A stretch of 55,176 bases of DNA, the filler included, from Streblomastix strix (lineage: Eukaryota): the NCBI GenBank assembly GCA_008636045.1. It is 3 parts of 3 records of this genome, joined end to end, with 100 filler letters (N's around TTAATTAATTAA, not from the genome) between each part and the next. Parts side by side here need not be neighbours in the genome. Positions count along the whole stretch, not along the records: positions 18,440 to 36,760 come from SNRW01000617.1; 2 more parts are not named here. The stretch is one strand, 5' to 3'. Under the pieces are notes generated by a model. It ran no database searches and was not told the DNA's origin. It saw nothing but the letters and a program-made list of their open reading frames with translations. This document shows positions 1-46,367 of the stretch, one piece after another. How positions within the stretch are numbered: the first letter of the stretch is position 1; each line of letters begins with the position of its first letter. The translations under genes and the position numbers were made by a program.

Positions 1-10898
<10,898 letters not shown>

Positions 10899-15106: not shown

Positions 15107-16060
<954 letters not shown>

Positions 16061-18339: not shown

Positions 18340-18439
18340 NNNNNNNNNNNNNNNNNNNNNNNNNNNNNNNNNNNNNNNNNNNNTTAATTAATTAANNNNN
18401 NNNNNNNNNNNNNNNNNNNNNNNNNNNNNNNNNNNNNNN
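18340..18439. other. Artificial assembly linker/gap (N44-TTAATTAATTAA-N44)
   Basis: Exactly 100 nt, with the six-frame standard-code stop spacer centred in Ns; identical to 36761-36860. Confidence 0.97.
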
Positions 18440-18670
18440 GAATCAAGTGCAGCAGCAGAAGAAGTAATAGAAGATTCGAGTGAAGAAAAAGAAAAAGAAA
18501 GAGAATCACCTGCAAAGAAGAGGAAGAGAGATGAAGCATAACATACACAGAAAAAAGGAAAAACTTAATAGATTGATTAAGAAGGTGTAAAAAGAAAAAG
18601 AATAAATGTTGATGATGATGAAGATGATAGCGACGTAAAGATTATGTTAAAATAAGAATTACAATATTCC
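18440..18670 (+). CDS. 3' fragment of a charged low-complexity protein with an NLS-like segment; partial, end uncertain
   Basis: ESSAAAEEVIEDSSEEKEKERESPAKKRKRDEAQ...KRKRINVDDDEDDSD directly after the gap. Confidence 0.4.
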
Positions 18671-21559
18671 CAATAAATAGTTATTGTGAAGTTATTTAAA
18701 ATATTTATATATTAATAATTATTTCCTGTATTTTTGAAGTTTACTAACATTTGTTAATAAGTATTTCATAAATTTACGTAAAATTTAATAAATTCTATTA
18801 TTGCAATTTATCGTACTATTTAAGTTTATTTACAATTGTTAATGGATTCTCATTATAACTATTTAATTTTAATTAAAAAATTTCAATAATTGTAAATATT
18901 TAAAATATAATTTAATTTTTTTTTATTTTTTATTTAAATAATTAAATTTTTTAATAATTTTTTAATTAAATTAGATTGTTTTTTGCAACAAACTTTTTAA
19001 TTACTATTTTTTAATAATAGAGCTAAATATCTAATATTTTTTCTTTATATTTTCAGATTAGATAGGAAAAATAAATTAGTTTAATATTAATTTCAGTATA
19101 TGTATATAACATAACGTAAAGATAATTTAAGAATAAGTTATAAAATTATTTGAATTTATGATTAGTATTTTTTGAAAAATTTAAATTAATGGATAAATTT
19201 TAAAAGATTTTATTAAATTGAAAGAAAATGATACTTAAAATCCAAATGAGCTTCACAGCTTAATTTATCGTATTAAATAATACTTTTCTTTAAGATTTGA
19301 AAGTCCATTTAACACGTTTTATGTTTAATAACTGATCTTGGAAATAGTAGGAACAACAATTGGTAATATGAAAACGTGTACTTTAACCACTAAATGAATA
19401 AAAAAAATAATTCGGAAGGAGAGACGTAGCAGATTAAATAAGTTATAAAAAAATCCTTGTTTGATGAACCAAAGAAATATTCAATAATTTAAAAAATGAA
19501 CTCAAAAAAAGGTAATTAGAACGTGCAACCATAATAGCAAATAGGTAATGTTCATTAAAATCAATAATAAGTAAACACGTTTCATCTTCCACTTAAAGGT
19601 AAAATTGTATTGGGGAAAATGCTATTAGTGCGTTTTATTTATCATACTATTAGAATTATATGATTGATATTTTGGGAAAATCCAATCTCCGAGAACTTAT
19701 AATTCCATTAATAAAATTTAATAATTTTAATATATATAAGAAAATTTTAACAAGCACAAAAAATATTCTATAGGGCGTTATTGGGAAATTTAACTATTAA
19801 AATCAAATTTTAAAAAAATTGAAAATAGGTTTACAGAAAAGTCGATTTATAAATGTATTAGATTTTATAATATTCTATTTTATAAGCATAATTCAATATT
19901 AATTTTTCATTAAAATTACATAAATTTTTAATCTCTGTAAAACTCCCGATACAATTAAAATATTTCAAAATTTTTTTCAAAAATGAGTTGAAATCTCCGA
20001 TAATTTGTAACTTCATAAATATATATACATTTATAATATATAGATATATCTAGTAATTAAATATTTTGAAGATCGTATAGCTGATTCTTTAATAATTTGA
20101 TTTTTATTTATATTTCAGCATTTTAATGTAAAATATCCAATTCTGTTTATTATTTTAGAAAAATTTAACTATATTCTAAATATAATATTTATTTAAATGT
20201 GATTAATTCATTATTAACTTATTTTGTTTTCTATTTATATTAAAACAGCAATTTCAAACATTATTTGAGTATTTTCTCTCTAAATATTATTTAATTATTA
20301 TAAAATTTACTTTTTATTATTTTTTTTTCTTTTTGTACCTATATTTTTGTTATTAATTTGTAACTGTTGCAATTGAGCTTAAATCATACAAGAGATAATA
20401 AATTTTAATTTTTATTTCTTCTTTTATACCATTTTTATTAATTATTAATCATTTATTATTATTGTATTTTATAGAAAATACTTACTCTTTACCGCATTCA
20501 TTATTACCAATACTGATTTAGGGAGTAATGCAAACTTGGAGAGGAATCGTTTAAATGAAAATTTTTTTTTGATTTTCATCATTTTTATTTGCATTTCAAA
20601 CAGATATACATATTGTGATGTTATACGCCTTTCTGTCAGATGTTTTTTGAGCTTGTATATCTGCACTTACTATGAATTATTCACTAGTATTTTTATTTTA
20701 CTTATAATATGTAATTTTATTTCTCTTTTAAACTGATTTAAATATAGAGAAAGTTTTCTTTGATAAGAAGGAAATTTTAAGATTCAAAATTATGAGTTAA
20801 TTTAATAGATTGAAAGTAGATAATATATAAAATCAAATAGAACTTTATTTGTGATTCATTTAGTTTCTATTAATATTTCAAATATTTTAAATTTTATGTA
20901 ATTTTTACATTCCCAAGATTTGTACCATGTCTATAGCTCGAATTAAAATGACATTCACAAGTTATATCTGTGCTTTTGGTGTTAATACGTTAGGTATTTA
21001 TTTTTTTAATAATTAATATATACTTATTCTACTATTATTATTTTGAATTAAATCAGAAATATTAATCAGATTTAATTTATTTAAAAGCAGATCATTTGCC
21101 GTAACAATGAGGAATATAATTAAAGTAGCGATGACTGAAATTTTTGATTATATTAATGGTAAATTGTGAGATATACTAAAATTAATTGTTAATATATTAT
21201 GATTTATTTAGAATTTATTTTAATTTATCACATACAAATTTATATATATTAATAAAGACTGATGAACCGTCCAACAGCAGTTGAGTTATTAGACTCTGTT
21301 CTGATATGTTTCTCTTCAGAGATTGAGAATGTATAGTTATAAAATTTTATTTTCTTTTTTTATAAATAATAAGTTATTAATTATATTGAAAATATTCAAA
21401 TTAATTTTTATTTAAAAACATATTTTATGATCAATATGAAGAGTTTATCATTCCTAAAATACAAATATTAAATGAAATAAATTATGAGGATTAAAATGAA
21501 GTTTTGGATAAGGATGTTTTTTAGTGCCTGAATCATTATTTATTGATTTCTTTAATTTT

Positions 21560-22729
21560 TCATTATAATTTGATTGTAGTTGGCATTATAGCTGGAAGTT
21601 CATCATGTTCAGCATCTTGAATATCGCTACTATTCTTTCTGAGTGTTGTAAATATCTGTGATGGTTCTCCACTATCTTGTGTTCCAAATGGACATGTTGA
21701 TCTAGTTAATAGAACTTTAAAGTTCTTAGCTTTCAGATCTTGTGATGTGCTACTACTCTTACTTCTAGACTAACTGATATTCACGGTTGATTCTGATTTA
21801 TAAATTCCTCTAGCAACAACTTTAACTGTATGATCGATACTTCTTCCAGAATTTATTTTATTAGAATAACCTAATATTTGTATATATCCAACTCCTTTCT
21901 CATGATCATACCCATATCCATATCCTAAGTAATATCAATCACATGTTTTTACTCTTACATCATCTATCTTTTCAAATTCTATTTATTTCTTCTGTTTCAT
22001 CTTCTTCTAATGTGTTTTCTGGTGCAAATGTAGCATATTCATCTTTTTATTAGAATTCAGTAGTATAATTTCATTCATCCTAAGTATATTCATTTATTTG
22101 TTTATTTCTATGAAATAATTCATCTCATTCTAAATGAAAAATAAGATATTTACTTTGTTCTTCATTAATTTTAGTGAAGATAGGAACAACTTCAAATGAA
22201 TAATTTACAAATCTTGGAGAATATATTTGTACTCGAACTATTTCAGTTTTTATATCTTTATCATCATTTAATTTTAATTCACTTTTAACTTTTATTATTC
22301 CGCAATCATTAGATCCATATATCCAAGTACTTACAATTGTCTCTCTTTCCATAGCTCTTTCTTCAAATATAACTGTTGATCCTTATGTACATTCGACATT
22401 CTTTTTCATTATAAAGTATTAAAATTTATTATGAAAATACTTATAAAATACGCTATCTTTATCAATTTACAGATTTAATAATTCTTGACATGAATATCAC
22501 ATCCATCTAATACAGAAATAAAAGATCTGATAACATAGACTTCTGCTTTTCTGAATAAGAGTCCAGATCCGATGAATTTGCACAAATCTTTCCCATCTTT
22601 TGAATCTATTAGTATGATATCATCTATTTGAGGAATATCCTCAAGATGTATAATTTTCGAATTAGTATTTTGACCTTTTGATTTAGCAACAGCTCATGAT
22701 GCACTTGAAGGATAAAGAAGTTTCATCAT
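21560..22729 (-). pseudogene. Degenerate hypothetical protein gene with several in-frame TGA codons and a frameshift
   Basis: Long coding-like reading that includes ORF 22125-22352 and YLGYGYGYDHEKGVGYIQILGY, interrupted by at least four TGAs and a shift near 21980; family not recognised. Confidence 0.45.
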
Positions 22730-23111
22730 TTGTGCGTTATTGATAATTTGGACTTTGACACGTTCAATTTCAGGTCTTTTCTACTTATATTAAGACAATT
22801 GTTACAAAGAATTTTCTTAAATCTTCTTCAACAATTTTTAAAGTAACTATTCTAAGGGTAACGGAACTATATATTGAATATATTAATGTGTTTTGGGGAT
22901 TATATTATCTATTATAAATAGTGATTGTTTTTATTGCACTATCATCCGCTGACCACCAATCAAATCAAGTTCTAACATTTTTCTTTAAATCTATGTTTGT
23001 CTTTGAATGGAATGTAATTATATGTGAGCTATTATCTCAATTCATTCTCTTTGAGGCTATAAAATTCTGTTTATATCTAGTGTGGAAAGGCATATTAATG
23101 AAAAAGGAGTT

Positions 23112-23552
23112 CAGTAAAATCCGGCTAATTCGCACTACCATCGGCGAAAAAAATGCGAGTGCGAATTAAGTTAATTCGCACTTTTATAAGTAAAAAAAAT
23201 CAAAGATTTTTTTTTTAAATTTCAAAAAATAACTATTTTTTCGATTTTTTTTAAAACTAAAAAAAAATTCTTTGTATTTTTGAAAATTTTATGTATGATA
23301 TTGTATAAACAGTAAATTATAATAATAAACTTTAAATATTTACATTAAATATTAAAATTTTCATAATTAATTTAAGAAACAAAATTTATTTTTCTAAATT
23401 TGTTAGGTTTTAAGTGCGAATTATAAAATTTTTATGCGAATTATCTATAAGAAATTAATAGAGAAACAGTGACATTTCCTCAAATAATATAATAGTGCGA
23501 ATTATACATATAGTGCGAATTAACCGGTGTGCGAATTTACCGGATTATACTG
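23112..23552. mobile_element. Non-autonomous TIR DNA transposon (MITE), Tc1/mariner-pogo-like, 441 bp
   Basis: Left end CAGTAAAATCCGGCTAATTCGCAC versus reverse-complemented right end CAGTATAATCCGGTAAATTCGCAC. Right flank TA, left flank TT. About 8 copies of AATTCGCA(C)/(G)TGCGAATT near both ends; AT-rich non-coding interior. Confidence 0.85.
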
Positions 23553-24885
23553 TATCAGTTTTCCAACTTTCAGTTCTTTTCAAAAATCTAAATATTTTTC
23601 TAAATTATAACATTAAAATTTAAAAATATTATATTCCATTGATAATATACATGGAATATTTAGAATTTTGATAGATGAATCAAAAAATTAATAATTTCAA
23701 TTAATTCTGAAAGAAGTGGAATAAGATATTGAAATAGGAGGAGGAATTGAAGAGATTGAAGCAAATTTATTTCATTCAATTGAATTAAGCATTGATGAAA
23801 TAGGATATAATTCACTTGAAGCAAAGAGGAAAATATTGAATATTAATTTGAACTAAACAAACATTATAAGCAAATAAATTATAATATTACCTTATGTATT
23901 TGACGGTAATATCAATTCAAAACCATATTGAAAATAAAAAGAAGATAGGAGGAAAGAATTAATATAAATAAATATTATTGAAAGGAAAAATTTATGATAA
24001 TAACAATGAAAAATAAATGATGAAAAGGATTTAAATGATTAATAATTAATAAATAATGAATTTTAGAAAGAATTAAATAATTCAGAATAAAAATAATTTT
24101 GAGTTAATTGAAGATAACAGAAAATTTATTCAAATTTTTTGTTTCTATTTTTATTGTTAAAGTCATTTTTTTCCATTTTTGTTTAAACGAGTGAAAATAA
24201 ACTAACAAATAATGATTTCAACAATTAATATTGTATTTTCTCCCCATCTTTTTATAGTCACAAGAAAAAGTAAGGTGAATAATAATCAAAGGAATTAAAA
24301 GAAGAAATATTTGAGAATGTGGAAGAAAAAGGTCTAAATGATGAAAATGAAATTATACTTTACCATATTAATATAAGAAATGTATAAGGTGTATAATAAC
24401 TGGCTTAATTGCTTAAAAATAGTGAAAAATGAATAAAGATGTTAATACTTTGATCATGAATAAGATTTTTTAACATATTGTGTTGACCGTTTATCTTATT
24501 GAGTATCTTATTGTAAATATTTTCAAATATTTGTTTAATGAAATAAAATTAAAGTGCAAAATTTATATAATAACCTGATTAAAGAGGAGATAGACATGAA
24601 AAATAAACTATGTATATTTCTTCTACAATATGAATACCAATATTAAAATAAATAATTTTATTTCTAACAAAAATATATTTTAGCCCTATTTAACTTTAAA
24701 TTATTAGATATGATATACAAATAAAGCCATATTTACATTCTAATAATTCAGCAACAAAAATCACAAAAATTGGGAAATGCAACCGTGAATGTTAATTATA
24801 TTTGTTATTTTTTCAATTTAATTTAATTTTACATATAACTTATTTGAAGAAAAATTAATTAATCTTTCCTTATAAAGGCCCATCG

Positions 24886-26474
24886 ATGAGTGATGACTAT
24901 ATCTTATTCCAACCAGCTCTACGATAGTATAAAAGGAGGTTCTATTGCTTGGCAGCATTCTGCATTAATTCATTCATGCGATGTTTTGAATTAGCACTTT
25001 TAAATTCAGCTCCAAACTCAACATTTTAGTACTATAAACTTGCTGGAATTGATATGGAAAAAATAAATCTCATCCTTTCAATTGGTATGTGAAATATTTA
25101 CCGTTTCTAAAGCTTATCACATTCTTAATTTTCACAGGTGCATTAAGCTACGAGTTATTTGTATTCCTGATGATGTACCTAGACACACGGTGGAACAATC
25201 TTCGCTATTTGACACTGTTGTCATCATTCGCACTTTTACTCAGTTGTATAATAAGAATGTTTCCAACCTGGTTCCCAAATATTCTAATGCCACATGCATT
25301 CCCCTTTCTGCTTGTCGGATCAATCTTGAATCAGCTTGGATCGTCTTTCAGCTACTCAACATCATCACTGATCAGCGCTAAATGGTTCAATTCACAGGAA
25401 AGATCGATAGCAACTGGAATTTCGTCGTAATCTGGTACAATTGGAATCGGCTTTGCGTTTCTTCTGATTCCATTCATAGCTCCATAAGGGAAATACATCC
25501 CTATAATCCTCTACATTGATCTTGGACTCCAGTTTTTGTGCACAATCGCGATTTTGTTGTATTTTCCAGCAAATCCTCCAATTCCACCTTCTTATTCAGA
25601 ATAGTATAGAAGAGGGAATTTCATTTCAGATGCACCTTCACCACAAGATTCACATTCACCAGAAAATTAGTAAGGAAATTACTATCATTAATAAATCAAT
25701 AATTCTGAATAAATAGCATAATAAATCACTTCACCAATAACACAACCAATTCCAATTCAGCCAAAGCCAATCCTTTCAATGAAATAATCTTTGAAGCTAC
25801 TTTTGTGTCCCGACTTCATCAATCTATGCTTATTCTCAGGATTATAAGCAGGATGCACACAAGCTTGGGCTGACAACATTACATATTTCTACACAACTGT
25901 TGGATATTAATAGAATATTGGGGGCATATTCTCATGCATGAATATCTTCACATCAGCCATTGGTGGATTTGTATCTTCAGTTCTCTACGAGAAGAAATTC
26001 AAAAAACACGAAAAATTGCTTCTTTTCCTCATTTTCATTCTCGGAATCATTTTCCAAGCCTTCTTCATATTTGCACTTCCAATTGTCAGTATTCATTCAC
26101 AAACAAGAGATCCACTAATCAAGATTCCACTTTGGTTGTTCTCAACAATGATTATTCTAATTGGCTTCTTACAGGGAGCTCCTTTTGGTGTGATATTCGA
26201 GATTGGAGCTGAACAAACTTTTCCAGCATCTGAAGCATTTTCAGGCGGCGCACTTACTGCTGGTATTAATTTCTTCTATTTTGCTACTCTACTGGTGTTT
26301 GCAACAGTGCCACTTGGTTATCGTACAATAATCACTGTTGGCATTGTTGCAATATCGACTGTCATGCTGATGTTTCTGAGAGTTAACAGGAAGAGGCAGA
26401 ATATTGAAGATATTGGAGAAAGGAACAGCCTTATAAAGAGTGATAAAGAAGGATATAATGAAACAATTAATTGA
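24886..26474 (+). CDS. Major facilitator superfamily transporter, FLVCR/SLC49-like
   Basis: QYKRRFYCLAAF N-terminal motif, SAKWFNSQERSIATGI...GIGFAFL, FEIGAEQTFPASEAFSGG and many hydrophobic helices. One intron at 25085-25137; ORF-track pieces join through TAA/TAG=Gln. Confidence 0.88.
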
Positions 26475-26962
26475 GATTTCATTCTATGCATGGACTAGTT
26501 CTATAATTATATTTTGAATATTCGAATCAGTACTTAATCATTGTGTTGTATTGTATTGTTAATTTTGAGTTTTCTTAAGTCCCTAATGAAGAACATGATA
26601 AAATCGTTGGGGATCTTTAATAACGAAAGCAAAGCAGTATAATACATAAAGAGTTAGCAATTTAACAATTATTAAAATTTTGCATTTTTAATTGTGAAAA
26701 AATAAACAATTTATTCAGTAACAATTTGAAAATATATTTTGACTTTAAATTTACAACAAGATTTTCTCGATTAATGTATGACAATTTTAAAGTTATGCAT
26801 GATAAATGCATTAAACAGTGAATTACTGTGATAAATAATCCTATTACGAATATTAAAACATCAAGGAAAAGTACTAATTTAATTCAAAAAATTAATCAGG
26901 TTGTAACGCCGCGCACACAAAATATTTTTATTTAATTTATTAATTTTTATTATAGAAACATA

Positions 26963-27858
26963 ATGGAAGACGAAGAAGATACACCAAAATAGTTCAAGGT
27001 CATCTTCATCGGCGATGGTGCAGTGGGAAAAACTTCGATAATTCTACGCTTCACACAGGACTACTTCGACCCAGACCAACGCTATAAACAGACTATTGGG
27101 TTAGATTTCTTTGTCAAGCATCTATAAATAAATGGTATGCCATTTTTTGTTTTGAGTATGGCTTGCTTATTTGATGTAAATTTTTTCCTATTTTTGCAGA
27201 TAAAACATAGGTCTCATTGTAATGTTGGGATATTGGAGGATAAACTATTGGCCAGAAAATGATCTAAAATTACATTAGAGGCTCAAATGCAATAGTTCTT
27301 ATTTACGACATAACCGTGCAAAGTTCATTTGACAATCTTGAGCGCTGGATGTCTTTTGTAAACGAAGTTTTCGCGGGGAAAGACAACAAGCCATACCTTG
27401 CACTTGTTGGAAATAAAAGTATATAATACTCATTTAATATTTTATAATATCTTTATACAATCATTATTAAAAATTTTTTCAAATTTACATTAGCTGATCT
27501 TGGGTATAAGCGGGTAGTAAAACTTGATGATCATTCGCGTTTCGCAAACAAATATGGGATGAAATATTTCTTCATGTCAGCGAGAACAGGAGACAATGTG
27601 AATGCTGCTATGCTGAAGATCGCGAGTGATTTGGCAGGAGTGAAACAGACAATTGTTGAATTGGAAACAAGCACTGTATGAAATTTATTATTATTAAATT
27701 ATTCAATAAATGATTCTTTTTATTTAATTTATTTTCAGTCATAAGCAACAGCTACAATCCAACGATTTGGTGAAGCAGATGCAAATGAATAAGACGGAAA
27801 AGATAAAGAAGTTGATAAGAAGAAAAAGAAGAAAAATGAAGATTGTTTAATTCTTTGA
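26963..27858 (+). CDS. RAB28: Rab28 small GTPase, 4 exons
   Basis: GDGAVGKTS, YKQTIGLDFF, the diagnostic WDIGGQTIGQKMIQNYI (Q from TAA), VGNK and SARTG motifs; polybasic tail plus CaaX CLIL* with TGA at 27856-27858. Confidence 0.92.
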
Positions 27859-28016
27859 TATGAATTTTATTCTAATAAACATTCATGATAATATTTAATA
27901 AAATAATATATAACAATACTATATGAGTTAGATTTTTGCACTCATTGTTTTATTAATACTGAAAAAATATAATCTAAAAGAAAAAATTGAAATGATTTTT
28001 GAAATGATAGATAATA

Positions 28017-31000
28017 TCAGTTATCAGAATCTTCTTATTGATTCTCTTCATCATTATTTGATTAATTATCATCATTTTCTGACTCTTCTTATTCTTATTC
28101 TTTTATATCCATTTCTTATTCACCTTCTGATTCATCCATATCTTATTCTTATTCTGATTCATCCATATCTTATTCTTACTCTTACTCTTATTCCTTCTGC
28201 ATCTAATTCACACAATCCCAGACTCTTCCACAAGCAGCTTTCAGTTTCCCAATGACCTGAATATTCTTCATCCCCAATTCCTCTCCAACTCGATACAGTG
28301 GTCCATATTCCATCTAAGCGGATTGAATTCCTTCCTTTTCTTGATCATCTCCATTCAAACCACTTCCACTACCTTTCTACAAACGAACTACTCCAATATG
28401 CTTCAGAAATCCTAATGCACTGTTTGAGTTACTCAATAGTTTCTATTAGTTTTATCTTGCATCACCAGCTCTTAAACCAGCTTCTAATAGTAGTTGTGCT
28501 TCAGGATGTGTGAGACCACATGGAACACGACCTGTGAGGAGAAGAAGCGCAACATTAGGAAAAAGATCAAACACAAACAGAAGCCCCAAATTACCTGCTG
28601 CAAATCTCTGTAAGCGATGCAAGTCATATGGTGAAAACATTTCAGTTGGTGAATAATATTGATAATAATTATATTATTATTAATCATCATCATCTTATTA
28701 TTATTATTATTAATCTATTTATATACTAATATTATTATCAGGTTAAGGAATTGGTGGAGCAGGACTTCCTAAGAATCTTCTTCCATCTGGATCAATCAGT
28801 TGTATGGCTAATTATGAGGAGATTGGAATGTGCGCATATGGAATCAATGAAAGAAGACGGTGGCAGAAACGAGAGAAACTTCTTTCAATCCAGGAATTGC
28901 GCTGTGATATGGTGAGTTTAGTTTAGAGTGAATTATTGATAGGTTATTATTATTCAGATTATAATTCAACTTCTTCTTCATCGTTTTCATCATCTTCTTC
29001 TTCAGTTCGAATTGGTTAGGCAAAACAACATATCCATCTTTCATATTCTGTTGTACAAACATAGCTTTTAATGTTTCTATTTTCAATTCCATTTAATTAT
29101 TTATTTTCTATTATTTTCTATTCATCATCTTCTTCAATTCTTCTTCTTTTCTTTCCTTTTGATTTTATTATTTAATTCTCTTCTTTTATTCCCATTTTCT
29201 CCTTAATTAGCTTTTCTGCTTCTTATTCATCAGAAAATTCTTATTCTTATTATTTTCTTTTCAATTTACCATTATCAGATGTTTAATTGAATTAATTATT
29301 CTATAAATTATCATTGGTTAAATTATTAGATGTTTATCCATGAAGCAAAACAGGAGTCATTTTGCATTTGAGCCAAAAGTTGCAGATCGATTCGGCATCA
29401 TCGTATTCAAATACAACAGAAGTAAATATGAAATCAGCATTTGGAGGAACAATACGAGATATTGGTGATAAGAATGGAGCTTTTGATGGCAAATATGAAA
29501 TTAATCTTTTCTTATTATTAAGATTCTCTATTTAATTTTAACTATCATTTGAATCAACATTTAATAATTCGCCTCTGAAGAACTGTCTCAATTGTTTCAC
29601 AGCTTCCAAACCATATCCAACTCCGCGGACTTCAGGATGTGTGCAGATCTTCTAAATATGAACCATTCTTTGGTTCTGAAGTTGTTCATGTTCGCTTAAT
29701 AATATTGGGAGTTTGGATTTGAATGATAATTGACGATTGTTTGATGACTAATATGAAATGTTTTGTATTTATTATTATTTATTATTTGATTAGTTTGAAT
29801 TACTGATTGTTTCAACTGATACGCGAATAACACACATGATTTCTCCAGTTCCAAGTAATTATTCTGTATTATTTTCATCTTTATCTTCATCTTCTTATTC
29901 ATTTTAATTTTCATTTTCATTATTTTATTCTTATTGATTAATTTATTTCTTCTTTTGTGTTTGAAATCTTTCTCCGATCAAAGCAAAGTAAAGATCTTCA
30001 TTTTCATTAGTTTCTATATTTTAATCATTTATATTAATTGATGAATCATTTTCTTTCTTTTTTTATTAAATATTTTATTTTTTCCCCAAAATTTCTTATA
30101 TTTCATTTCCTGATAAATTTCTCTCATATCCACGATATATTGCAAAGAATCGTGCAAGAAATAATTCTTCTTATTCTGATTATGATCTGATATTATTCAA
30201 TTTATATTCATTATCATCATCATTTGCTTATATTTATTTATTTTTCTTATTATTAATATTTTCATTCAATTCAACTTATCCTGTTTTCTGAAGTGAATTA
30301 TTTGATTCGTTCTGTTTAAATGTGTGAAATAGAGGAAGTTTCATAATATGCATAGCTGACGGATTCAATAAATGAAGTGTGCACAATTCTGGAGGTGGAC
30401 AGGCTAAACATCTGTGCGTTTACATCATCAATTAAAGTGTTTAATGTGAAAATTATGATTATTATTATGATTATTATAAGTTCGTTTTATTATTTATCTT
30501 TTCATTGTTCAATTAATAATCAGTCAAAGGCGACCACGTAAAGAAGAATAATTGAGCCAAAATCGAACAAATTGGATCAGATGGATTCATTTATGGTGGT
30601 TTTTATAGCACAGCTGTTATAACTCCACTTCCTTTGCCATTCAAACTAAACAATCCATTTTCATCTGAATTACTCAAGAAACTCGAATTCTTCTTATATT
30701 TCCTACTCTCATTATTATATCCATTATTTCTCCCATATTTAATACCTTATCTCTTCATACCAAACTCGATCGAATTTCCGCTCAGTTCAGAAACAATCTA
30801 TTCAGCAACATGAAGACAGCATCCTTCATTCCCACCAAGATCCAATGGAATAATCGATAACTTTGCTTATTGTGATGTCTGTATGGCTTAATTACGGTAT
30901 TAACTTCTTATTAATAAGTCATCACTGCAGAAAATAACCAAATCGCAGACATGAGCCAATTATAGTTCAGATGGAAGTAAGAATTGAACCGTTTGTTTGT

Positions 31001-32444
31001 GTGAGTGGAAAATGTCTATTCTGAGAACTCTGGGATTGTTTATTATTGGATGTTTAATTAGTTGGGCTATTTTTTATTCGGGTTCTCTTTTTCTTTTAAC
31101 TTTTGTATTTGAAATATCAGTTATTTAATCATTATTAATATCATTACTTGTTTATTATTCATTTTCATCATATTATTATTATTATTATTATTTCTGCATA
31201 ATAATCGTATAATCCCTTCCTTCAATATAACCAAGTGCATCAAACCCCTTTACACATCCAGCGAAAATCGGTTCAGCTTCTTCAGCTGATTATCCAACAA
31301 TACAGATTGATGGGAGACCCAATGCAACAGCTGATGCAACTGAGATGCCAAAAATAAATGATCTGTATTATTAAGCTGAACAATTAGATGGAGCTGATAC
31401 AACTATTATTTGAGAAGTGGATGATGTGTTTTGTTTGGGTAAATGTATAGTTGCGAGAGATGAAGTATTCACTGGTGTTGGAAGCGAAGATCTTTGGGTC
31501 AATGCATCAAATATCAGAAGAAATGCTTTTGTTTGATCTAATGCAAAATCAGGTGTTATTGATGAATTGAAATGTTTGTTGTTTATTATATTATCTTCTT
31601 AATCCAAAATATTTCTTTCTTTAGATTCAATAATTCCTTCACAGAGTAATTTCAAGAGAGGTTCAATAATATCAACCCCAGAGAATGAATCAATAATTTT
31701 ATGAAGCTCATCTAATATGCGTTATTGTGATGAATTTATATTTTGTGATTTTTGAATTGGTAATTCGGATTAATTTGAAAATGTTTGATTTGATTAATTT
31801 TATTCAGATTTTGAGTTTGATTAGTAAATTAATGAATTTGGAGAAGATAAAAGAAGATGGAGCATTCTTGAAACATCTGGGGTAAGATGGTTTGATTTAA
31901 AATCAATGTTAATAATGATGATTGAAAATTAATCAGATTATACAATTGTTCTGATAAGTAGATCTGCATTTACATTGAAAATTCCCTAAATGAATGATAA
32001 TAATAAATAGAAGTTTAAATAAAATAAATATTAAATTTATACAGAAATTACGCAAATATTGTCTGGTTTAGAATTTAAATATTCATTATAGTAGTTTTCA
32101 AAGTTGATTAATCGAGCATGAAACTTTTTCTTTATTCGTTCTTCATGGGTCTAAGATCTGAAATATATAAATAAAGCAATATTTTATAATTATTAATAAA
32201 ATTTACTATACTGGGACAAGTTTGAGCGCAAAATAGAAACTCTGGGTGCTATCTTCTTCTCTTTGAAAAACGTAGAAGCTTGTGAAATCTAAATTAATAG
32301 ATAAAATATAAAATCAATAATCATATTGAGCAAATAAAAGTTAAAATAAACAATTTTGACTATGCTGCCATGATCTAGACTTCCAACAACGCATTTGTAT
32401 CCTTAACTCCAGCATCGTTAGAAAAGAGGATTGAGATCAGTCAT
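28017..32444 (-). CDS. Highly divergent NAT10/Kre33-like RNA cytidine acetyltransferase homolog with degenerate helicase ATP motifs
   Basis: Collinear NAT10-like blocks: GISVASAVALG...KGFDALGYIEGRDYTII, RIDIFHSHKQTVQFLLP, CPPPELCTLHLLN, ELFLARFFAIY, KICTHPEVRGVGYGLEAVKQLRQFFRG, NFWLKCKMTPVLL and FSPYDLHRLQRFA. Three 5' introns, long Q/N insertions and an acidic tail ending at TGA 28017-28019. Confidence 0.82.
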
Positions 32445-32637
32445 TTCTAATTAAAATTTAACAAATAAATATTAGTGTTCGAAGAAAAATATATTTTAAA
32501 ATAATTAAATGATCTTTCTGCTGCGAAATATTTCACTTTAAAAATAATGAAATATTTCGTTATATTGAATAATAATGATTTAAAATATTATATAATCTGA
32601 TAATAAAAATACATATAAATTATTTAAAATAATTATT

Positions 32638-33841
32638 ATGAAGTTCAAAAATCCAGGAAGCCTTGGAAACAAGCTGGAAAAATTAAAAATGTATATAACA
32701 GGACTTTTATAATAATTCACAGAGTATAAAAGATTCTACAGAATTTTTTATTTTTAATTAATAAATATATAGATTGCATTTTTATGGTCAATTTCGTATT
32801 CGGATATTTAAACAACATTGAACATGTATTTCGCAATGATAATAATTGTATTGAGCTCTTGTAGTACAGCATAAATTTTCAGATAAAGTTACATAATTGG
32901 TGCAGATGGATGATGGTACATATTTTACAAGTGTAATTAATGTTACATCTGTGCATCTTACAATTCATGGTAATTATTAAACCGATATTTAAAGATATTA
33001 AACTTCTACTCGACCTTTATTTTTTGGTAATTCTGCACGTATTTCTCTTCGCAAGCTGAGATTTATGTCAGACGATTATCTTGTTACAAGAATTGATAAA
33101 GATTCTTAGTTGATTTTCAAAGATAACACGGTTGTTGGCACAACAAGTGGTGGGGAATTGCTTTGAAATTGATGGTGGAAAACTTTTTCTCATCAAATTA
33201 AAACTTGATTTTGTGAATATTAAACAATAGAAAGTCTCAAATCTTGTAAAATTTAGTGAACATGGTGGATATTTAGAAGTACGTAAGACATACCTTGAGG
33301 GTATAACAGTAGGAGGAGGTAAACCACTTTTTGGAGATGAAAGAGCAACTGGTATATCAATTAATAACTGCTAATTCAAACATGTACAAATTGATAAATC
33401 TGAAGTTGCTAATAAAGCAGATACTATTATTGGATCTACAAATGTGAATATAACCAGTTGCGCATTCATTGATGTTGATAATGCACTTATAGGAGGCATT
33501 GCCAATGGTCTAAACCAGAACGGGAAATTATCTGTAATAGGATCAACATTCAAAAACTGTATTAACACACAATATGCAATAAATACAACAAGATAATATT
33601 CAGATCGAGATAATATCATAACAGGAGATGCTGAATTTGATGATACCAATTGGAAAGATTGAAGTACGTTAAATGCAGTACAAGTTATTCACAGAATGCA
33701 GAAGGTGGTTCAATTTATATCGAAGGTGGGATAAACATTGCGAAAGAATTAAAAATCATTTCATCAACAGCAGAAATTGTACATACATCAATTTCAGACT
33801 GTTGTTTTGTTGAAGATGAAAATATTTGCTACTTTTATTGA
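32638..33841 (+). pseudogene. Fragmented beta-helix (pectin-lyase-fold/Pmp-like) repeat surface-protein gene
   Basis: Repeating I.NC.F / S.F.NC motifs (ISINNCQF, ITSCAF, GSTFKNC) and GGSIYI; multiple frameshifts and TGAs. Confidence 0.5.
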
Positions 33842-33849
33842 ATTCTAGT

Positions 33850-35694
33850 AGTTTTCGGCATTGATTAATGTTGTTTAGCCATCCTTCTATCACTCCATCA
33901 TTCTCTTCTAGGTTTCCACCACCAGTTGCAAGGGCTGATGAAAGAAAAGAAATATATCTTTCTTATATAAGTTGTTAATATAATTATAAGCTTTGACTAT
34001 CTTGAATTGCTCCAAAACATCTTAAGCTTGATTTCTTTAGATCTATTTATTCTTATTCTAAGTTAATATTTTGTTATTAATTTTATATTTGTTTATACAT
34101 GGCTATGATAGCTGTGATGAAGTTTAATTATTTTAATGTATTTTGTCCATAGAAGAAATATTTCCATAATAAAGCAGAGAGAAGTTCAAGGGATGACGAA
34201 ACAAGCTTTGGAGATTAATTAATGATTAATTAATGGTTTAATATTATATTATTGTGAAGTAAAAGTGATTACTTATATTCATTTATTAAAGATGTGATAT
34301 GTTGGATGATTTTATTATCTTTAATTATTTATAGATATTTACTTGGATAACAGTTATTACTAATAATAACATCTCTCAGTCTTTCAAATACATTCTAGAG
34401 TAATTTTAAAATAGTAGATGAAGGTTAAATTGCAATCCTTAATGGGCAATTGAGTTCAGGACGGCAATTGATATGTAGAAGAGGAGTTATGTTTTTCATT
34501 ATAAGGTCTTATATTGAAGTTGGATAATCATTAGGATTAAAGTTTCGAAATTATTTTATTATTTTAATTAATTTTATTCCTTATTTTATTTCTTTTTCTA
34601 ATATATAATTATTTTATTGATCTTTCAAGTCTTTGAGTGAATTCAAGAAATATTTTAAATTTTTATCCAACACCTAAATATATGGTTTAAGATTATGCTT
34701 ATTATAATTATCATTAAAATCATCACAAATAACATTGATATTGGTTAATTACACAAGTGAATCTGAATATTGTTATTTATTATTCATTTCTTCATCAACT
34801 TTTAATTAATAGAAGGCTTTCATTTTATTCATAAATCCTGATTTGATCATGTTTAGACGAAAAGTTTTTTATTATTAACTTTAGTTTATATTGTCAATTA
34901 AATGTTCAATTATATTTATCAAGATCTTTTAAATATTTTAATTGAAGAATGCAATTCGATCAATTATGAATAAAAGTAATTCTTCATCAAATATCTCAGT
35001 AATTTCATTAATATCTTTCTTCTATAGATCAATGAAAATTTATTATAAATTATTTCCTTTTACTTTATCTGATATTAATTTAGATTATATTATTTGAGTT
35101 AATTTATTTTTGGTTTCATTTCTTTCGGGAGAATATTCATTGTGATTAGGAATAATACTTGCTTTGTCTCGTATATTTGAATTATCTTAATTCGGAACCC
35201 TACTAGAAAATTAGTTTTGATTGACTTGCTTCAAATGAAATTCTATTTAAATAAAAATAATAAATAAATAAATTATTTACAATTGAAATATTATTAAAAT
35301 ATTAAATTATTAATTTAAAATAAAATGAGAATATCACACTGTTTATTATATCATTTTCAATTCTTTTATCCTTAATCAATTATTTTTCTTTTATTTCTTC
35401 CTTTATCTAAATTCGAATTTCGGATCCATCCAAAATAAATTTATCATATTTCTTCATTACTTTCAATGCTGTTTCGTAGTTCACCATCATTGCATATCCA
35501 CGCCCAACTGAAACTCCTCCAATGGACTCTATTCTCACATAACCTCTAAAAAATATTAACAGAAGTATTTAATTTTTAGAATAAATTAAAAATCATGAGT
35601 CATACACAGCTCCAACTGTCTCAAAAAGAAGCCCAATCGTCTTCGCAGTAGTCACTTTATTCAGATTGGTGATGATTAAAGTTGCAGATGTCAT
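33850..35694 (-). CDS. N-terminal RRM domain followed by a long helical/low-complexity region; possibly frameshifted near 34190, 3' end uncertain
   Basis: MTSATLIITNLNKVTTAKTIGLLFETVG (RNP2-like) and VGRGYAMM...YDKFILDGSEIRIQ (RNP1-like); introns at ~35547-35606 and ~35245-35340. Confidence 0.6.
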
Positions 35695-36760
35695 CTATTA
35701 TCTAATATATGCAAAATAAAAATAATTTTATAAAACAAGAAATTTTCGGGAATTTAACTTTAATTCAATTATGAGTTTATTGATGAAATTTGTGATTAAA
35801 AATGAAAGTTTTATAATATATTATGATATTACATTTTATTAAACAGGAGTGATAGTTAAACGTTCAGTAGCAAATAATGCAAAAATTCTTGTAATAATAA
35901 TAAAGGGACATGAAAATTTAAGCGGTATGCTTCGAAATTCCATGTAAATATTTCATTATTTTCATCCATTTATACTTTTTTTGCAAATTAACTATTAATT
36001 TTTCTCATTTTATATATGTGACAAAATTTTAAAATTTTAATATATTTTGAAACATTCATAATTTTGTTAATTTTAATGAATATTTTAATGAATTTTTATT
36101 TGTAGATTGTAAATTGTCGTTATTTTATTTTAATTGCTAATAATAGAAATATATAAAAAACTGGAGTTGTCGATATTTTTGTAAATTAATATTAAGTAAA
36201 TCTTCATTATTCAGTTTATTACCATCTTTCTTTCACTTGTTCTCTGCAGTTATCTTCATAAGTAGCCGTATAGCTATAAAAACGAAAGGGTATAATATAA
36301 GATCGTCTTCATTAACAAAATTCTTATCTACTCTGTACTCAGTTTTTGTCAATGATGCTTATTTCTTTTTCTTTTTTTCTTCATCTGTTCAACTCACTAT
36401 GTCATCTTTTACTCCTCAATCAGCTAACTTTGCTCTAACTGACTTGAATGCCAACTTTCTGTACTCAATGCAGACAAGTTCAATCATTTTCCATTTGTTT
36501 TGTTTTTTTGACAGAGATATTATTATGAAAATGAAATAAAGTATTTAATAAAAAGTACATGATTGAAAATATAAAATTGAATGCATAAATTAAATAAATA
36601 AAGTAATAAAACCCAATTAATGGGTTTCATTTAACCCAGTCGCCTTTATAAGGCTCCATTCTTTATTTAGAATATATTAATTGGTGAAATGTGTTGGATC
36701 GCACAAAATTTTTTGCCATAACAAGGGGACCCGATGGACGAAGGTGACTTAATTCAACAT

Positions 36761-36860
36761 NNNNNNNNNNNNNNNNNNNNNNNNNNNNNNNNNNNNNNNN
36801 NNNNTTAATTAATTAANNNNNNNNNNNNNNNNNNNNNNNNNNNNNNNNNNNNNNNNNNNN
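36761..36860. other. Artificial assembly linker/gap (N44-TTAATTAATTAA-N44)
   Basis: Same 100-nt construct as 18340-18439. Confidence 0.97.
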
Positions 36861-36946: not shown

Positions 36947-38450
36947 TTCTCCATTAAGAATTGATCTACATTTATAAACAACATATCTTCTATCATTTGC
37001 TTCAATTTTTACTGGAAAAATGTTATTTGAAACGAATATAAAATTAACTACATTCTCAGCATCACGATGAGGTTAATTTTTTTCAATTATTTTAATCGTA
37101 CAATCAGTTTCGATTTATTTTAAACGTTCATTATTTGCTCGTTTATCCTCTCCAAAATTTGTCATTTTATTGGCAATAATCAATATTTTTCCTTCAACTA
37201 TTCGATTAAAATATCTTGTTAATTCTTTTATATTTGTACAATTTTTACAGCTGTAGCCTACCATGAGCTCGCATAAAACATCTGCAAATCGGTTCTTACC
37301 AATGCCTTAATTTCCTTTCAAAATAAATGTTGACTCGATCTTTTTTTTGCATTTTGAAGTACATAAGCTATCCAATTAATTAAAAAGTTATATAATTTTT
37401 CATCGCCTGAACAAAAAACGTTTAAAACAAGGTCTATATATTATTTTATTATATTTTTATCATATTTTTCAAGTAGCTCATATTTTCATCCTTAAAATAG
37501 TGAGAAAATTTACTGCTCTTTTTCTTTAAATTTTATACATTATATGCAAAATAATGCTATAAATTTTTCGAATATATGCCATACAATTATTTATTTTTAC
37601 AATCTTTCCATAACATCATTGTTTCTAAATCATCAGATATACCCGCTTTTGTTTTATTATCTAATATATGTCTTTTTGTATAAACTTCATATGCTTTGAC
37701 AATTAAATCCATTCTCGACTCCACAAATCGCATAACTTTTGTCAAATCTGATATAACTTCTTCATCTTTTGTATATTTCTTTTTTCTTATATCAACAAAA
37801 TTAATATCATCATAAAAATCAATATCAAATATTTATATTTCTGTAATATTTTTATTTTAATTGTTTGATTCTCTGAGCTCTGGATGTATTACATTTTCAT
37901 AGTATTATTTTTTTATGACATTTAATTATTTTTTATAATTTTAATCTGAATTTTTTTTATCATTAAATACTATCTTTTTCTTCTCCCATTATTCTATTGC
38001 ATTAATTGTTAAGTTTTAGCTTTCTTTAATATCTTCATAAGCTTAATCAATCTCTTCTTCATTAAGCCCAAAATTAATTAGTCCATTATGTCTTGAAAAC
38101 AAAGTTAATAAGCTTATTTCATTTTCTATTTTTTAAGCATCGTTATGAATCTCTAATCCTTCTATACATTGAATCAATAGCTCTGCATAATTTCGTGATA
38201 ATTAAATGGTTCCTTCTTCAGATATATAAGGTATTTCTTCATCAACTTATTACTTACAGGTCGATGCCTAATAAATCCAATATACACTCAAGAAGAACCA
38301 TAAATGATTTAGATTTATAATTATTTACATCAATATATTTTTATATTAAACTTTCACTATTTATTTATTCTCTAATTGTTGAACCAACTTATACTATCCA
38401 ATATTATTTATTATTAATGCAACAAAACAAATCAATATCGAAATTTTCAT
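36947..38450 (-). pseudogene. SF3/D5-like (DUF5906-type) primase-helicase, frameshifted
   Basis: LYNFLINWIAYVLQ...FILKGNQGIGKNRFADVLCEL (Walker A, ~37292-37315), ILIIANK (Walker B region, E to K), NFIFVSNN (motif C) and KIEANDRRYVV (Arg finger); several frameshifts and an in-frame TGA at 37486-37488. Confidence 0.85.
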
Positions 38451-39211
38451 TTTTATAAATTTTAATTTATGAATTATTTTAATATTATAACCGTATAAAT
38501 TACAATATAAATCTAGTCCTCCATGAGCTGTTTAAATAAATCCAATTTATTCAATTATTTAGCTAAGTCGCTTAATTGCTTAATCTCTTTTTTATTTTTT
38601 TTATTCTTCATTTAATGTTTTATTTATATCAATATCTATAATTGCTAACTCTTAACATTTTGCAATATCTATAGCCTATCCTGATTTTTATCCAATATTT
38701 TTATTTAATTGAAATTTATCATAAATATATATATCAGTTGTTATATCTCTAATTCTATTACTTAACGTTTTAGTCTAAATTAAATCAAATTGTTTATATA
38801 ATTGATTATTTTTTTAACTGTTTTATTATGATTTCAAAGCATCAATTTCTAACAAATTTGAACTAAATGAATAGTTAGTAGTTGGATTCTTATTACCTGC
38901 CATTTCTTACATCTAAAAAAAAATTGGATTTAAATAAAATAAACTCATTTATTTTTAAAATAAGTTTATTTATTTAATTATTTAATTTTGTATTTTACAC
39001 AGATTTAATTATACTAGATATTGGCACATTGGCATATTGGCAGCTATTTTTAAGAATAATTGAAAATATCCTCAGGGTATGGGCACCTTGATCACTTTAT
39101 TGTCATTCACTATTCATATCAATTCTTCGTGCCAAAATCATGAACTTTTGATTGACATGAATTAACGGTTTTATTTTACGAGAATAATTAATTATTTTTT
39201 TTATGATTAAA

Positions 39212-41148: not shown

Positions 41149-43047
41149 TGATTTTTTCCTTCATCAGCATGTAAAACATTCTATATCGTTGATGATGGCA
41201 CTTGCAGAGTTTTCGTATTCAACTTATACTTCGAATCAAAAGGTTTGCAAAGGAGAATATAAGATGTAGGTCGTATTCCTGATTCTATATTACCTGGAGA
41301 TGGTAAAAGTTTAGGCTTCCCTGCGGCTGTATATAGAACAAAGGGCGGAAGATAGAATAATTTATAATGAAAGACACACATTTACAACAAGCAGGAACTA
41401 TTGAAGAAACATTGTTAGGTAATGCGGTTGTTCCATTCACTAGTGATGGAGAACATTATTATTCTATCCAGGAAATTAAACAAGAATTAGAAATGCCAGC
41501 GTTGTTTGATAAGGAAATAATTATAAGTTTATCAGACACTAACCATGACATCACAAAGATATAAAATTCGTTCTTGTCGGTAGTTCTAACAGCTAATATC
41601 TAACTTGATGATAAATTTGATAAAATTAAAGAATCATATAAAAACGGATTGGTTCTATTTATAGGTCTCAAATCATGTTCAAATCTTATTAGAAAATACA
41701 CCATCTATCATAGAGGTAAAACAATTGATGGAAGTCAATAGAATGACGCAACAACCGAATCATGTATTTATATTATAATTAAGCCAAAAAGTCAGAAAAA
41801 TAATAGAAAACATATTCATTACTTGTATGAGAATATTAATAAATTTGATACTTCAGCATGTAGCTCATATATAAGTATGCGAGAGATTGAAGAACTAACA
41901 AGAAATAAAACATCTGTTCCATATACAAATCCAATTCATTTCAGAGTTAGTATTCCTCTTGAGGACCTCCTGATATTTTCTGCATTCACTGATTATCCTA
42001 ATGGATTGTTTGTTGATTTAAAATAAAATTCAAAATTAATCCTCATGCATTTGTTTTCTGTCAGGTGAATCCAATTATTTCAATAGCTAAATATGATATA
42101 ATGAATAAAGATGAGTTATTGAGTTGTAATCAATAGAAGTTAATGGATATTGATTTGATGTTCAGAAATTGGAGCTTGACATTCTAATATACAAAATAAT
42201 TTACATAATTGGGATGCACTGCTGACTTGATTACAGGACTACATTCGGAACCACTAACTGAATCAAGATTGAAGGACTTAGTATGCAACATCAAACCCGT
42301 TACCATGAGCATAAAAAATTATGTCATTACCGAAGTAACGGCTAATATGACAAAATATAATAATACTGACGCATGTCTTAATCGAGTCCATTAATTCAAC
42401 TGCTAATGTTCATTTGTTGTCCTAGCCCAAAGAATAGAAATATTGCTATTTCCAACATCTGCTACATTAACTGGAATATGAACATCATAAAATACTCAAC
42501 TGTCTCACGTAATCGACTTCTGTGTTCTATTTCCGAAAGATGTTAGAGCAACAACTTGCTTTGAAAATCCTTGCTACTAGGACATGCAAGTAACCACCTG
42601 CGGCCGCAACTTTCCAGATATGCCTATGAATACGCTTGACCAATAATTCTTCTAACTACAACTCAATGCTTCAAATCTTGACCTGTTATTCGATGCCTCT
42701 GATGAATTCGAGGATGCTTTGACAGCACCAAGAAATACAGCTACTAAAAGATAAAATCCTCACTCTGATTTTACAAGCTTTTTGATAACATTTTAAAATG
42801 ATAAAAACAGCAATGGAGCATTAACTTTAAATACAAAAGACACTCAGAATTAAAACACTTCCGTCGAACTCAGAGAGGCTCAAATATAACAAGGAGCAAC
42901 AGATTCATACTATAATGTTGATACCAGTGGAAAGAGACAACCACCTCAAATTCTATGCACGGTTCATGATACATTTTGGTTGTTCTTACCCGCTGAGGGT
43001 GGGAGCTGTTTATATGATTAAACCATTTATTTGATGAAATTATTTGA
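41149..43047 (+). pseudogene. Putative double-jelly-roll major capsid protein (about 600 aa), inactivated
   Basis: Joining ORFs 41367, 41823 and 42209 through TAA/TAG=Gln gives beta-rich blocks in the order expected for DJR capsids: NLIRKYTIYHRGKTID, FRVSIPLEDLLIF...DLK/IKFKINP, LSHVIDFCVLFP and MQVTTCGRNFP. Frameshifts at ~41360 and ~42023; TGA at 42479-42481. Confidence 0.62.
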
Positions 43048-46193: not shown

Positions 46194-46367
46194 GGATGAA
46201 CAATTGTCGGAGTTCTGAAATACTCATTCAAAACAAATTCATGATCATCTTCTATTGATAAATAGTCTTTTATTGCTATAAACAGTCTTATATTGTAAGT
46301 CTATACTATTAATAATAATTCATAAACTAATAAATATAAATAATTTAAAAGATGTAAAATATTTATG

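What the first reader, a model, noticed from the sequence alone, without database searches (positions are those of the whole stretch)
28017..32444. NAT10/Kre33 homolog that has lost its ATPase motifs but kept the GNAT acetyl-CoA loop
The domain order of NAT10 is retained end to end. The invariant Walker A TAARGRGKS is replaced by VSAPSNCSAQQYRS (~31360-31405), Walker B VIDEAA by VIFCSDD (~30918-30940), and the SHYKNSPNDL motif is unrecognisable. GNAT motif A persists as THPEVRGVGYG, although the following Arg is Glu. The ORF appears intact over ~4.4 kb, which implies selection. NAT10 needs ATP for ac4C formation and sits as a dimer in the 90S pre-ribosome. This copy could be a pseudo-enzyme partner in a heterodimer, a structural ribosome-biogenesis factor, or an ATP-independent acetyltransferase. 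These functional options are inference.
Basis: partly seen in the sequence, partly recalled or inferred. Interest (0 to 1): 0.75.

Follow-up and report, generated by a model that had tools for sequence, protein, structure and literature searches.

The report
Oxymonad-wide dead twin of NAT10
Gut flagellates called oxymonads carry a second, conserved copy of the RNA-acetylating enzyme NAT10 that has lost its ATP and catalytic residues but kept its CoA loop and dimer-forming tail, so it likely works as an inactive partner subunit of the normal enzyme.

Summary
Read with TAA/TAG = Gln, window 32444-28017 (minus) is an intact NAT10/Kre33 homolog, with three predicted in-frame introns giving 1417 aa. 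Walker A, Walker B, motif III and the catalytic His-Tyr pair are lost; each is 96-100% conserved in ordinary NAT10s. The GNAT CoA loop and the C-terminal RNA-binding/dimer domain are kept.

It is not a one-off. Equally degenerate orthologs, all labelled 'hypothetical', exist in Monocercomonoides exilis (MONOS_9520), Blattamonas nauphoetae (BLNAU_8781), Streblomastix strix and one unnamed metagenome protein. They form one clade (100/99). A published orthogroup table lists a separate NAT10 gene in each of the three named species, so this is a lineage-wide pseudoenzyme paralog.

Most likely it heterodimerises with the active NAT10 through the tail domain. A model of an ortholog with frog NAT10 scored 0.66 against 0.00 for controls, but may recall solved NAT10 dimers. 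ATP-independent RNA acetylation is unlikely. I did not retrieve the oxymonad canonical sequences, and expression is untested. No paper on it was found.

The parts
28017..32444 (-). NAT10/Kre33 pseudoenzyme paralog gene (TAR=Gln code; 1475 codons unspliced, 1417 aa after three predicted introns)
32289..32351 (-). predicted intron 1 (63 nt, GT-AG, GC 0.14, in frame)
   Evidence: the ortholog aligns across the join; the public gene model P0006 makes a join here too
32158..32211 (-). predicted intron 2 (54 nt, GT-AG, GC 0.11, in frame)
31986..32042 (-). predicted intron 3 (57 nt, GT-AG, GC 0.11, in frame)
   Evidence: gapless match to canonical NAT10 across the join
31533..31535 (-). Q-motif Gln (Ct Q261, adenine contact), retained here and in M. 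exilis
   Evidence: 149 of 149 in ordinary NAT10s; position worked out
31359..31400 (-). degenerate Walker A: both Gly lost, Lys to Arg, Ser kept, loop lengthened
   Evidence: G 156/157, G 155/156, K 156/156 in ordinary NAT10s
31194..31367 (-). retained helicase core block after the P-loop (residues 360-417), the best match to Kre33
31086..31103 (-). basic cluster in a helicase insertion; M. exilis has one at the same place; possible nuclear signal (inference)
30918..30938 (-). degenerate Walker B: Asp-Glu replaced by Cys-Ser
   Evidence: D 155/157, E 154/157 in ordinary NAT10s
30822..30848 (-). motif III: Ser-Thr lost, G-x-acid-G kept in 3 of 3 orthologs covering it
30108..30128 (-). site of the catalytic His-Tyr (Ct H548/Y549), replaced by Glu-Arg
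   Evidence: His 153/160, Tyr 154/160; essential in PMC13433802
29610..29651 (-). GNAT motif A / CoA pyrophosphate loop retained (Thr, His-Pro, Gly-Tyr-Gly); the R637 position is Lys
29139..29159 (-). second basic cluster, in a GNAT insertion; also basic in M. exilis and P0010; possible nuclear/nucleolar signal (inference)
28215..28892 (-). C-terminal helical RNA-binding / dimerisation domain, strongly conserved across the paralog clade
   Evidence: Pfam tRNA_bind_2 in 4 of 4 orthologs that cover it

Best explanation
This gene is a conserved oxymonad paralog of NAT10/Kre33 that has lost the ATP-binding and catalytic residues but kept the fold, the CoA loop and the dimer-forming tail, and it likely pairs with the cell's ordinary NAT10 as an inactive subunit. 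SHOWN: intact gene, loss of motifs, retention of motif A and tail, one clade across oxymonads. SHOWN FROM A PUBLISHED TABLE ONLY: a separate NAT10 gene in the three named species. INFERRED: (1) It cannot hydrolyse ATP or acetylate cytidine. (2) It docks tail-to-tail on active NAT10. [quoted passage not shown] (3) The heterodimer would fill the two Kre33 positions of the 90S pre-ribosome and/or act on tRNA-Ser/Leu. (4) The kept CoA loop is either structural or still binds (acetyl-)CoA.
For: Motif losses at positions that are 96-100% conserved among 179 other NAT10-family sequences. Walker A is lost in 2 of 2 orthologs covering it; Walker B and His-Tyr in 3 of 3; motif A is kept in 3 of 3; the tail in 4 of 4. 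H548/Y549 substitutions abolish activity and ATP is absolutely required (PMC13433802). Orthologs: MONOS_9520 (E 2e-49), BLNAU_8781, P0010 and further S. strix models; the best ordinary NAT10 scores E 8e-14. Each left-out member scores higher on the paralog profile than any ordinary NAT10 does (4 of 4), and higher than on the canonical profile. Clade support 100/99. The published orthogroups separate NAT10 (q2001571: MONOS_12166, BLNAU_3603, st24721) from q2010514 (MONOS_9520 plus three Streblomastix models). st24721 has a DUF1726 hit; the window protein and its public model P0006 have none. AlphaFold2 of the Blattamonas ortholog: mean pLDDT 66.7, tail above 90; its top Foldseek hits are Kre33/NAT10 chains. 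Complex model of the Blattamonas ortholog with frog NAT10 (GNAT plus tail): score 0.66, best of 3 controls 0.00, runs agree in at least 81% of contacts, partner pLDDT at least 60; the mark was reached by 51 of 78 solved complexes and 2 of 108 mismatched pairs; the interface is tail-tail plus tail-on-GNAT. The CtNAT10 dimer places the partner's RNA-binding domain at each active site, and its dimer residues are about 90% conserved. Catalytically dead Kre33 supports yeast growth, so a non-catalytic role exists.
Against: The oxymonad canonical NAT10 sequences were not retrieved (none named among 92 hits, many unnamed; 0 of 10 looked up), so their motifs are unverified. The complex model used a frog stand-in and an ortholog, not the window protein, and may pass from memory of solved NAT10 dimers. 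It cannot tell hetero- from homodimer, and close cousins of true partners also pass. 32 of the 37 rows behind the AlphaFold model were ordinary NAT10s, and the model of the window protein itself failed (pLDDT 37). The N-terminal domain is barely recognisable (0-2 bits), so 90S contacts there may be lost. Long branches can group falsely (warns). The His-Tyr alignment in M. exilis and Blattamonas is gappy. An invariant CoA loop is more than a bare scaffold obviously needs.
Confidence: 0.58

Rival explanations
1. Division of labour without mixing: the dead paralog forms its own homodimer and does the essential scaffold job in the 90S pre-ribosome, while ordinary NAT10 does the acetylation separately.
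For: Catalysis is dispensable for yeast growth while the protein is essential. The tail carries clade-specific changes (the conserved Asp-Tyr-His replaced by hydrophobic residues; a conserved C-terminal helix) that could favour self-pairing. Basic clusters suggest nuclear location.
Against: The tail still models onto an ordinary NAT10. rRNA acetylation is guided inside pre-ribosomes in yeast (PMC12848939, abstract and passages), which needs an active copy there. The Walker A mutant K289A does impair pre-rRNA processing.
Confidence: 0.2
2. A repurposed CoA-binding protein: an ATP-independent protein (lysine) acetyltransferase or acyl-CoA sensor that no longer acts on RNA.
For: The His-Pro and Gly-Tyr-Gly of motif A are invariant in 3 of 3 orthologs while every RNA-specific catalytic residue is gone. 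The window protein also keeps the equivalents of CoA contacts T640, G648, G650 and S726, with Lys at R739.
Against: S651 is Leu/Thr/Lys, and S726 is not kept in all orthologs. No conserved new catalytic base was identified. The whole helicase and tail architecture is kept, which a stand-alone GNAT would not need.
Confidence: 0.14
3. Oxymonads have lost ac4C altogether and all their NAT10 copies are structural.
For: The sequences of MONOS_12166, BLNAU_3603 and st24721 were not seen. No THUMP/Tan1 annotation was found in the readable part of the orthogroup file, which is truncated.
Against: Those genes cluster with Giardia, Trichomonas and other metamonad NAT10s, and BLNAU_3603 and st24721 carry KEGG NAT10 labels, whereas the degenerate copy falls in a separate group.
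Confidence: 0.05
4. A decaying pseudogene or assembly artefact.
For: No expression data. The public gene models at this locus are fragmentary (P0006, P0009).
Against: 1417 codons without a stop or frameshift, while only 22-24% identical to ordinary NAT10; orthologs in three genera.
Confidence: 0.02

Closest known systems
Eukaryotic NAT10/Kre33 RNA cytidine acetyltransferase (PDB 9AYM, 9B0I, 9J3C; 90S chains in 7SUK, 6KE6, 7MQ8)
   Same: Domain order, helicase core, GNAT motif A, helical RNA-binding/dimer tail; best match by sequence, profile and fold.
   Different: No Walker A/B, no motif III Ser-Thr, no catalytic His-Tyr, R637 not kept, DUF1726 not detectable, many low-complexity insertions; it exists beside a second NAT10 gene. 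NAT10 is described as a symmetric homodimer and the sole eukaryotic ac4C writer.
Enzyme-pseudoenzyme RNA-modifying heterodimers: ADAT2/ADAT3 (Tad2/Tad3), TRM61/TRM6, METTL3/METTL14 (recalled, no call)
   Same: A homo-oligomeric enzyme duplicates; one copy loses catalysis and keeps the interface and RNA-binding surface.
   Different: Different folds and chemistry; those pairs are pan-eukaryotic and proven, this one is oxymonad-limited and unproven.
Inactive paralogs in small-subunit biogenesis, such as Tsr1 (Bms1-like) and Rcl1, and trypanosomatid 'prozymes' (recalled, no call)
   Same: Dead enzyme folds kept as scaffolds or activators, in the prozyme case in one protist lineage.
   Different: Unrelated families; none involves NAT10.
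Bacterial TmcA (PDB 2ZPA)
   Same: Same ancestral helicase-GNAT architecture (Foldseek E 1.8e-5).
   Different: An active monomer; the window protein has the eukaryotic tail and is far closer to NAT10.

Membership tests
NAT10/Kre33 family (homology) | Collinear helicase, GNAT_acetyltr_2 and tRNA_bind_2 domains | tested here: met
   Pfam 2.4e-11 and 6.2e-7, helicase 0.13; hhalign 99.3% over 589 columns; profile of 57 NAT10s 156 bits
NAT10/Kre33 family (homology) | N-terminal DUF1726 domain | tested here: inconclusive
   No Pfam hit; 0-2 bits on a 4-sequence profile, with one short gapless match after splicing
Active NAT10/Kre33 enzyme | Walker A GxGKS | tested here: not met
Active NAT10/Kre33 enzyme | Walker B Asp-Glu (Mg ligand E390) | tested here: not met
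   ligand role
Active NAT10/Kre33 enzyme | Catalytic His-Tyr (Ct H548/Y549) | tested here: not met
   Glu-Arg in the window; also lost in both named orthologs; essential
Active NAT10/Kre33 enzyme | Arg637 | tested here: not met
   Lys / Ser / His in the three orthologs; Arg in 163 of 166
Active NAT10/Kre33 enzyme | GNAT motif A CoA loop (G648, G650) | tested here: met
   3 of 3 orthologs
Active NAT10/Kre33 enzyme | ATP- and acetyl-CoA-dependent ac4C formation | not testable with these tools
   needs an assay
Pseudoenzyme subunit of a heterodimer | An active paralog in the same genome | tested here: inconclusive
Pseudoenzyme subunit of a heterodimer | Conserved under selection despite catalytic loss | tested here: met
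Pseudoenzyme subunit of a heterodimer | Physical association with the active paralog | tested here: inconclusive
   Model passes (0.66 vs 0.00) with a stand-in partner and possibly from memory of solved dimers
Pseudoenzyme subunit of a heterodimer | Expression and nucleolar location | not testable with these tools
   needs RNA-seq and localisation

The most novel reading that the evidence does not exclude
Oxymonads have turned the universally homodimeric NAT10 into an obligate enzyme-pseudoenzyme heterodimer. The dead subunit lends its RNA-binding domain to the single live site, takes one of the two Kre33 positions in the 90S pre-ribosome, and uses its conserved CoA pocket to couple ac4C formation or ribosome assembly to acetyl-CoA in a cell without mitochondria. 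It would be the first natural NAT10 pseudoenzyme and a ready-made test of why NAT10 is a dimer.
Probability: 0.3. Interest if true: 0.8.

Novelty: new variant of a known kind. Interest (0 to 1): 0.66.

Why it matters
NAT10 is essential, but its catalysis is not essential for yeast growth. Why it is a dimer, and whether the two copies do different jobs, is open (PMC13433802 discussion). A dead paralog kept across oxymonad genera, a group dated to about 100 million years (abstract of PMC10703272), is a natural half-site experiment. Residues it keeps mark the non-catalytic functions; residues it drops mark catalysis. M. exilis can be cultured (PMC12308965, search listing), so the prediction is testable. 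It also gives an identity to genes now labelled 'hypothetical' in three genomes.

Tried and rejected
Standard code: no long ORF. Word-index searches with the window protein found only 2 ordinary NAT10s each and missed orthologs that the index-free search later found, so those blanks carry no weight. Two JGI metagenome scans confirmed 0 of 592 and 0 of 609 pattern matches. The search of NAT10s of 1221 aa or more gave 92 hits, none named as an oxymonad, and 10 name look-ups gave none. Sequencing runs: no RNA holder listed, which is no evidence either way. No reads were laid, so allelic variation and splicing stay open. AlphaFold2 of the window protein on a 5-row alignment failed (pLDDT 37) and was not used. 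ESM Atlas gave no usable hit for the M. exilis ortholog. NCBIfam: 0 families for 6 proteins. Rfam: 0 matches on the gene's contig. Gene neighbourhood is uninformative: the window is three unlinked contigs, and the neighbours on this contig are a Rab GTPase and an MFS transporter. Earlier scan notes: nothing on this gene; the 8 shown of 20 NAT10 notes concern archaeal TmcA pairs or a snoRNA. A block-by-block identity table among the orthologs was not obtained, so statements on which domains are best conserved are read from alignments and Pfam scores. Rejected: Arg-to-Glu after GYG as a sign of lost function. Literature: 0 papers hold oxymonad + NAT10, Monocercomonoides + NAT10 or Monocercomonoides + Kre33; listings showed no NAT10 pseudoenzyme paper. 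Subscription journals are not covered. The supplement of PMC6759080 could not be read, PMC6765251 is not held, and the annotation sheet of PMC10703272 is truncated; any of these could mention the gene.
Full report
1. The gene is real. The window is about 20-35% GC and has almost no long ORFs in the standard code. With TAA/TAG read as Gln, the finding is one open frame from ATG 32444 to TGA 28017. The frame has 0 internal TGA against 31 and 96 in the other two plus frames of the spliced CDS, and 0 of 2000 shuffles were stop-free. Three in-frame GT-AG segments near the 5' end (63, 54, 57 nt; GC 0.11-0.14) resemble introns in the neighbouring Rab genes. Removing them gives 1417 aa and improves the match to the M. 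exilis ortholog's N-terminus from E 5.5e-5 to 1.9e-11. The DNA is held by a termite-gut run. Among oxymonads the TAR=Gln code is reported for Streblomastix and an unidentified lineage from a wood-roach (PMC13002328, passages), and the nearest named proteins are S. strix models at 71-80%. A Streblomastix-like oxymonad is therefore my inference. The window is three unlinked contigs joined by spacers; the gene lies on 18440-36760.

2. It is NAT10 by descent. Pfam GNAT_acetyltr_2 scores 2.4e-11, tRNA_bind_2 6.2e-7 and the helicase 0.13. 6 of 7 PDB matches are Kre33/NAT10. hhalign gives 99.3% over 589 collinear columns. Identity to ordinary NAT10s is only 22-24%.

3. What is lost and kept. I aligned 179 other NAT10-family sequences to a profile and counted residues where present: Walker A G 156/157, G 155/156, K 156/156; Walker B D 155/157, E 154/157; motif III S 156/160, T 157/160; His 153/160, Tyr 154/160; R637 163/166; F326 155/158. 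The window protein has none of these. Its Walker A keeps Arg-Ser in register but no glycines, Walker B is Cys-Ser, His-Tyr is Glu-Arg, R637 is Lys and F326 is Gly (Ct numbering mapped by hand and sections 8-9 of PMC13433802). That paper found no activity for H548 or Y549 substitutions and an absolute ATP requirement. A review passage gives the same picture for yeast K289A, H545A and R637A (PMC6770127). Kept are the Q-motif Gln, the block after the P-loop, G-x-acid-G of motif III, motif A (Thr, His-Pro, Gly-Tyr-Gly) and the tail. Glu two places after GYG also occurs in 7 of 171 ordinary NAT10s, so it is not a sign of loss.

4. It is a conserved paralog. An index-free search of 1.84 billion representatives (residues 230-1415 of the unspliced frame) gave 91 hits. 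Above all ordinary NAT10s stood the window's own fragments (P0006, P0009), M. exilis MONOS_9520 (E 2e-49), S. strix models EZS28_001511 and EZS28_022009, an unnamed JGI protein P0010, and B. nauphoetae BLNAU_8781. Those named are all 'hypothetical'. They share the pattern: Walker A lost in 2 of 2 that cover it, Walker B and His-Tyr in 3 of 3, motif A kept in 3 of 3, tail kept in 4 of 4. The Blattamonas model lacks the N-terminal half and P0010 covers only the C-terminal part. In leave-one-out profiles each member outscored every ordinary NAT10 (245 vs 74, 285 vs 86, 110 vs 74, 88 vs 78 bits); the last margin is small. IQ-TREE on 29 rows and 212 confidently aligned columns gives one clade at 100/99, bootstrap not fully settled. 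FastTree on 61 rows agrees but warns of long branches. The orthogroup table of PMC10703272 (supplement rows) places MONOS_9520 and three Streblomastix models in q2010514. It places different genes, MONOS_12166, BLNAU_3603 and st24721, in the NAT10 group q2001571 with Paratrimastix, Trimastix, Giardia and Trichomonas. So each of the three species has both kinds. BLNAU_8781 was not found in that table, so the absence of Paratrimastix and Trimastix from q2010514 is weak evidence for an oxymonad-only distribution. I did not obtain the canonical oxymonad sequences; their activity is assumed from annotation and clustering.

5. How it most likely works. CtNAT10 is a dimer held mainly by the tail domains, and each active site is flanked by the partner's RNA-binding domain. 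The tail and the CoA loop are what the paralogs visibly conserve. AlphaFold2 folds the Blattamonas ortholog's GNAT and tail confidently (mean pLDDT 66.7, tail above 90; 32 of 37 alignment rows were ordinary NAT10s), and Foldseek returns Kre33/NAT10 chains first. A complex model of that ortholog with frog NAT10, folded without alignments, scored 0.66 against 0.00 for the best of 3 controls; runs agreed in at least 81% of contacts and partner pLDDT was at least 60. This mark was reached by 51 of 78 solved complexes and 2 of 108 mismatched pairs. The contacts are tail-tail and tail-on-GNAT, and include R584, D600 and P603, which are nearly invariant across alignment A8 and present in the window protein. 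Because NAT10 dimers are solved, this shows that the interface is still compatible, not that the pair forms. I put the heterodimer at 0.58, a separate structural homodimer at 0.2, a repurposed CoA-binding or protein-acetylating role at 0.14, lineage-wide loss of ac4C at 0.05 and a pseudogene at 0.02. That it is dead as an RNA acetyltransferase is about 0.9.

6. Novelty. Enzyme-pseudoenzyme pairs are a known kind among RNA-modifying enzymes (ADAT2/3, TRM6/61, METTL3/14; recalled). I found no report of one for NAT10 (with the limits given under Tried and rejected). It fails membership as an active NAT10 on four defining features and passes as a NAT10 homolog. Verdict: new variant of a known kind, interest 0.66.

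Papers seen: PMC13433802 (abstract and sections 7, 8, 9, 10, 13); PMC10703272 (passages and supplement rows); PMC6770127, PMC9226516, PMC13002328, PMC11109946, PMC8994135, PMC12848939 and 10.1101/175547 (passages); PMC8767320 (supplement search, 0 hits); PMC12308965 (listing only).

Noticed in passing
window 18340-18439 and 36761-36860: Artificial spacers (44 N, a 12-base all-frame stop, 44 N) join three unlinked contigs of about 18.3 kb; genes across them are not neighbours.
   Followed up: yes
P0008, P0011: S. strix has further copies of the dead paralog (71% and 80% identical fragments; three models in orthogroup q2010514). These may be different genotypes in the sample or recent duplicates. 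P0011 lacks 26 residues after motif A.
   Followed up: partly
window 28017-32444, public models P0006 and P0009: The public gene model at this locus is a mis-spliced 280-aa piece, plus a 62-aa fragment, which explains why the gene was not recognised.
   Followed up: partly
window 23120-23545: A roughly 425-bp element with inverted ends and repeated short motifs, MITE-like by eye.
   Followed up: no
window 37194-39035 (-), 41367-43246 (+): ORFs without a convincing Pfam match. The first has a primase-polymerase-like motif pattern and the others may belong to an integrated DNA element; both impressions are from recall and untested.
   Followed up: no
window 26963-about 27930 (+), 25170-26474 (+): An intron-bearing Rab GTPase converges tail-to-tail on the gene, and an MFS transporter lies beyond it; TAA stands at the conserved Gln of the Rab switch motif, which supports the code.
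   Followed up: partly
window 227-10898, 14240-14872, 15314-16030, 46169-47347, 52600-54890: On the other contigs: a very long IQ-motif protein, Skp1, a second Rab, FAM221 and an RCC1-repeat gene.
   Followed up: no
P0054, P0073, P0137, P0164, P0190: Five long NAT10s from other lineages miss one Walker motif by pattern match; they could be gene-model errors or independent partial losses.
   Followed up: no
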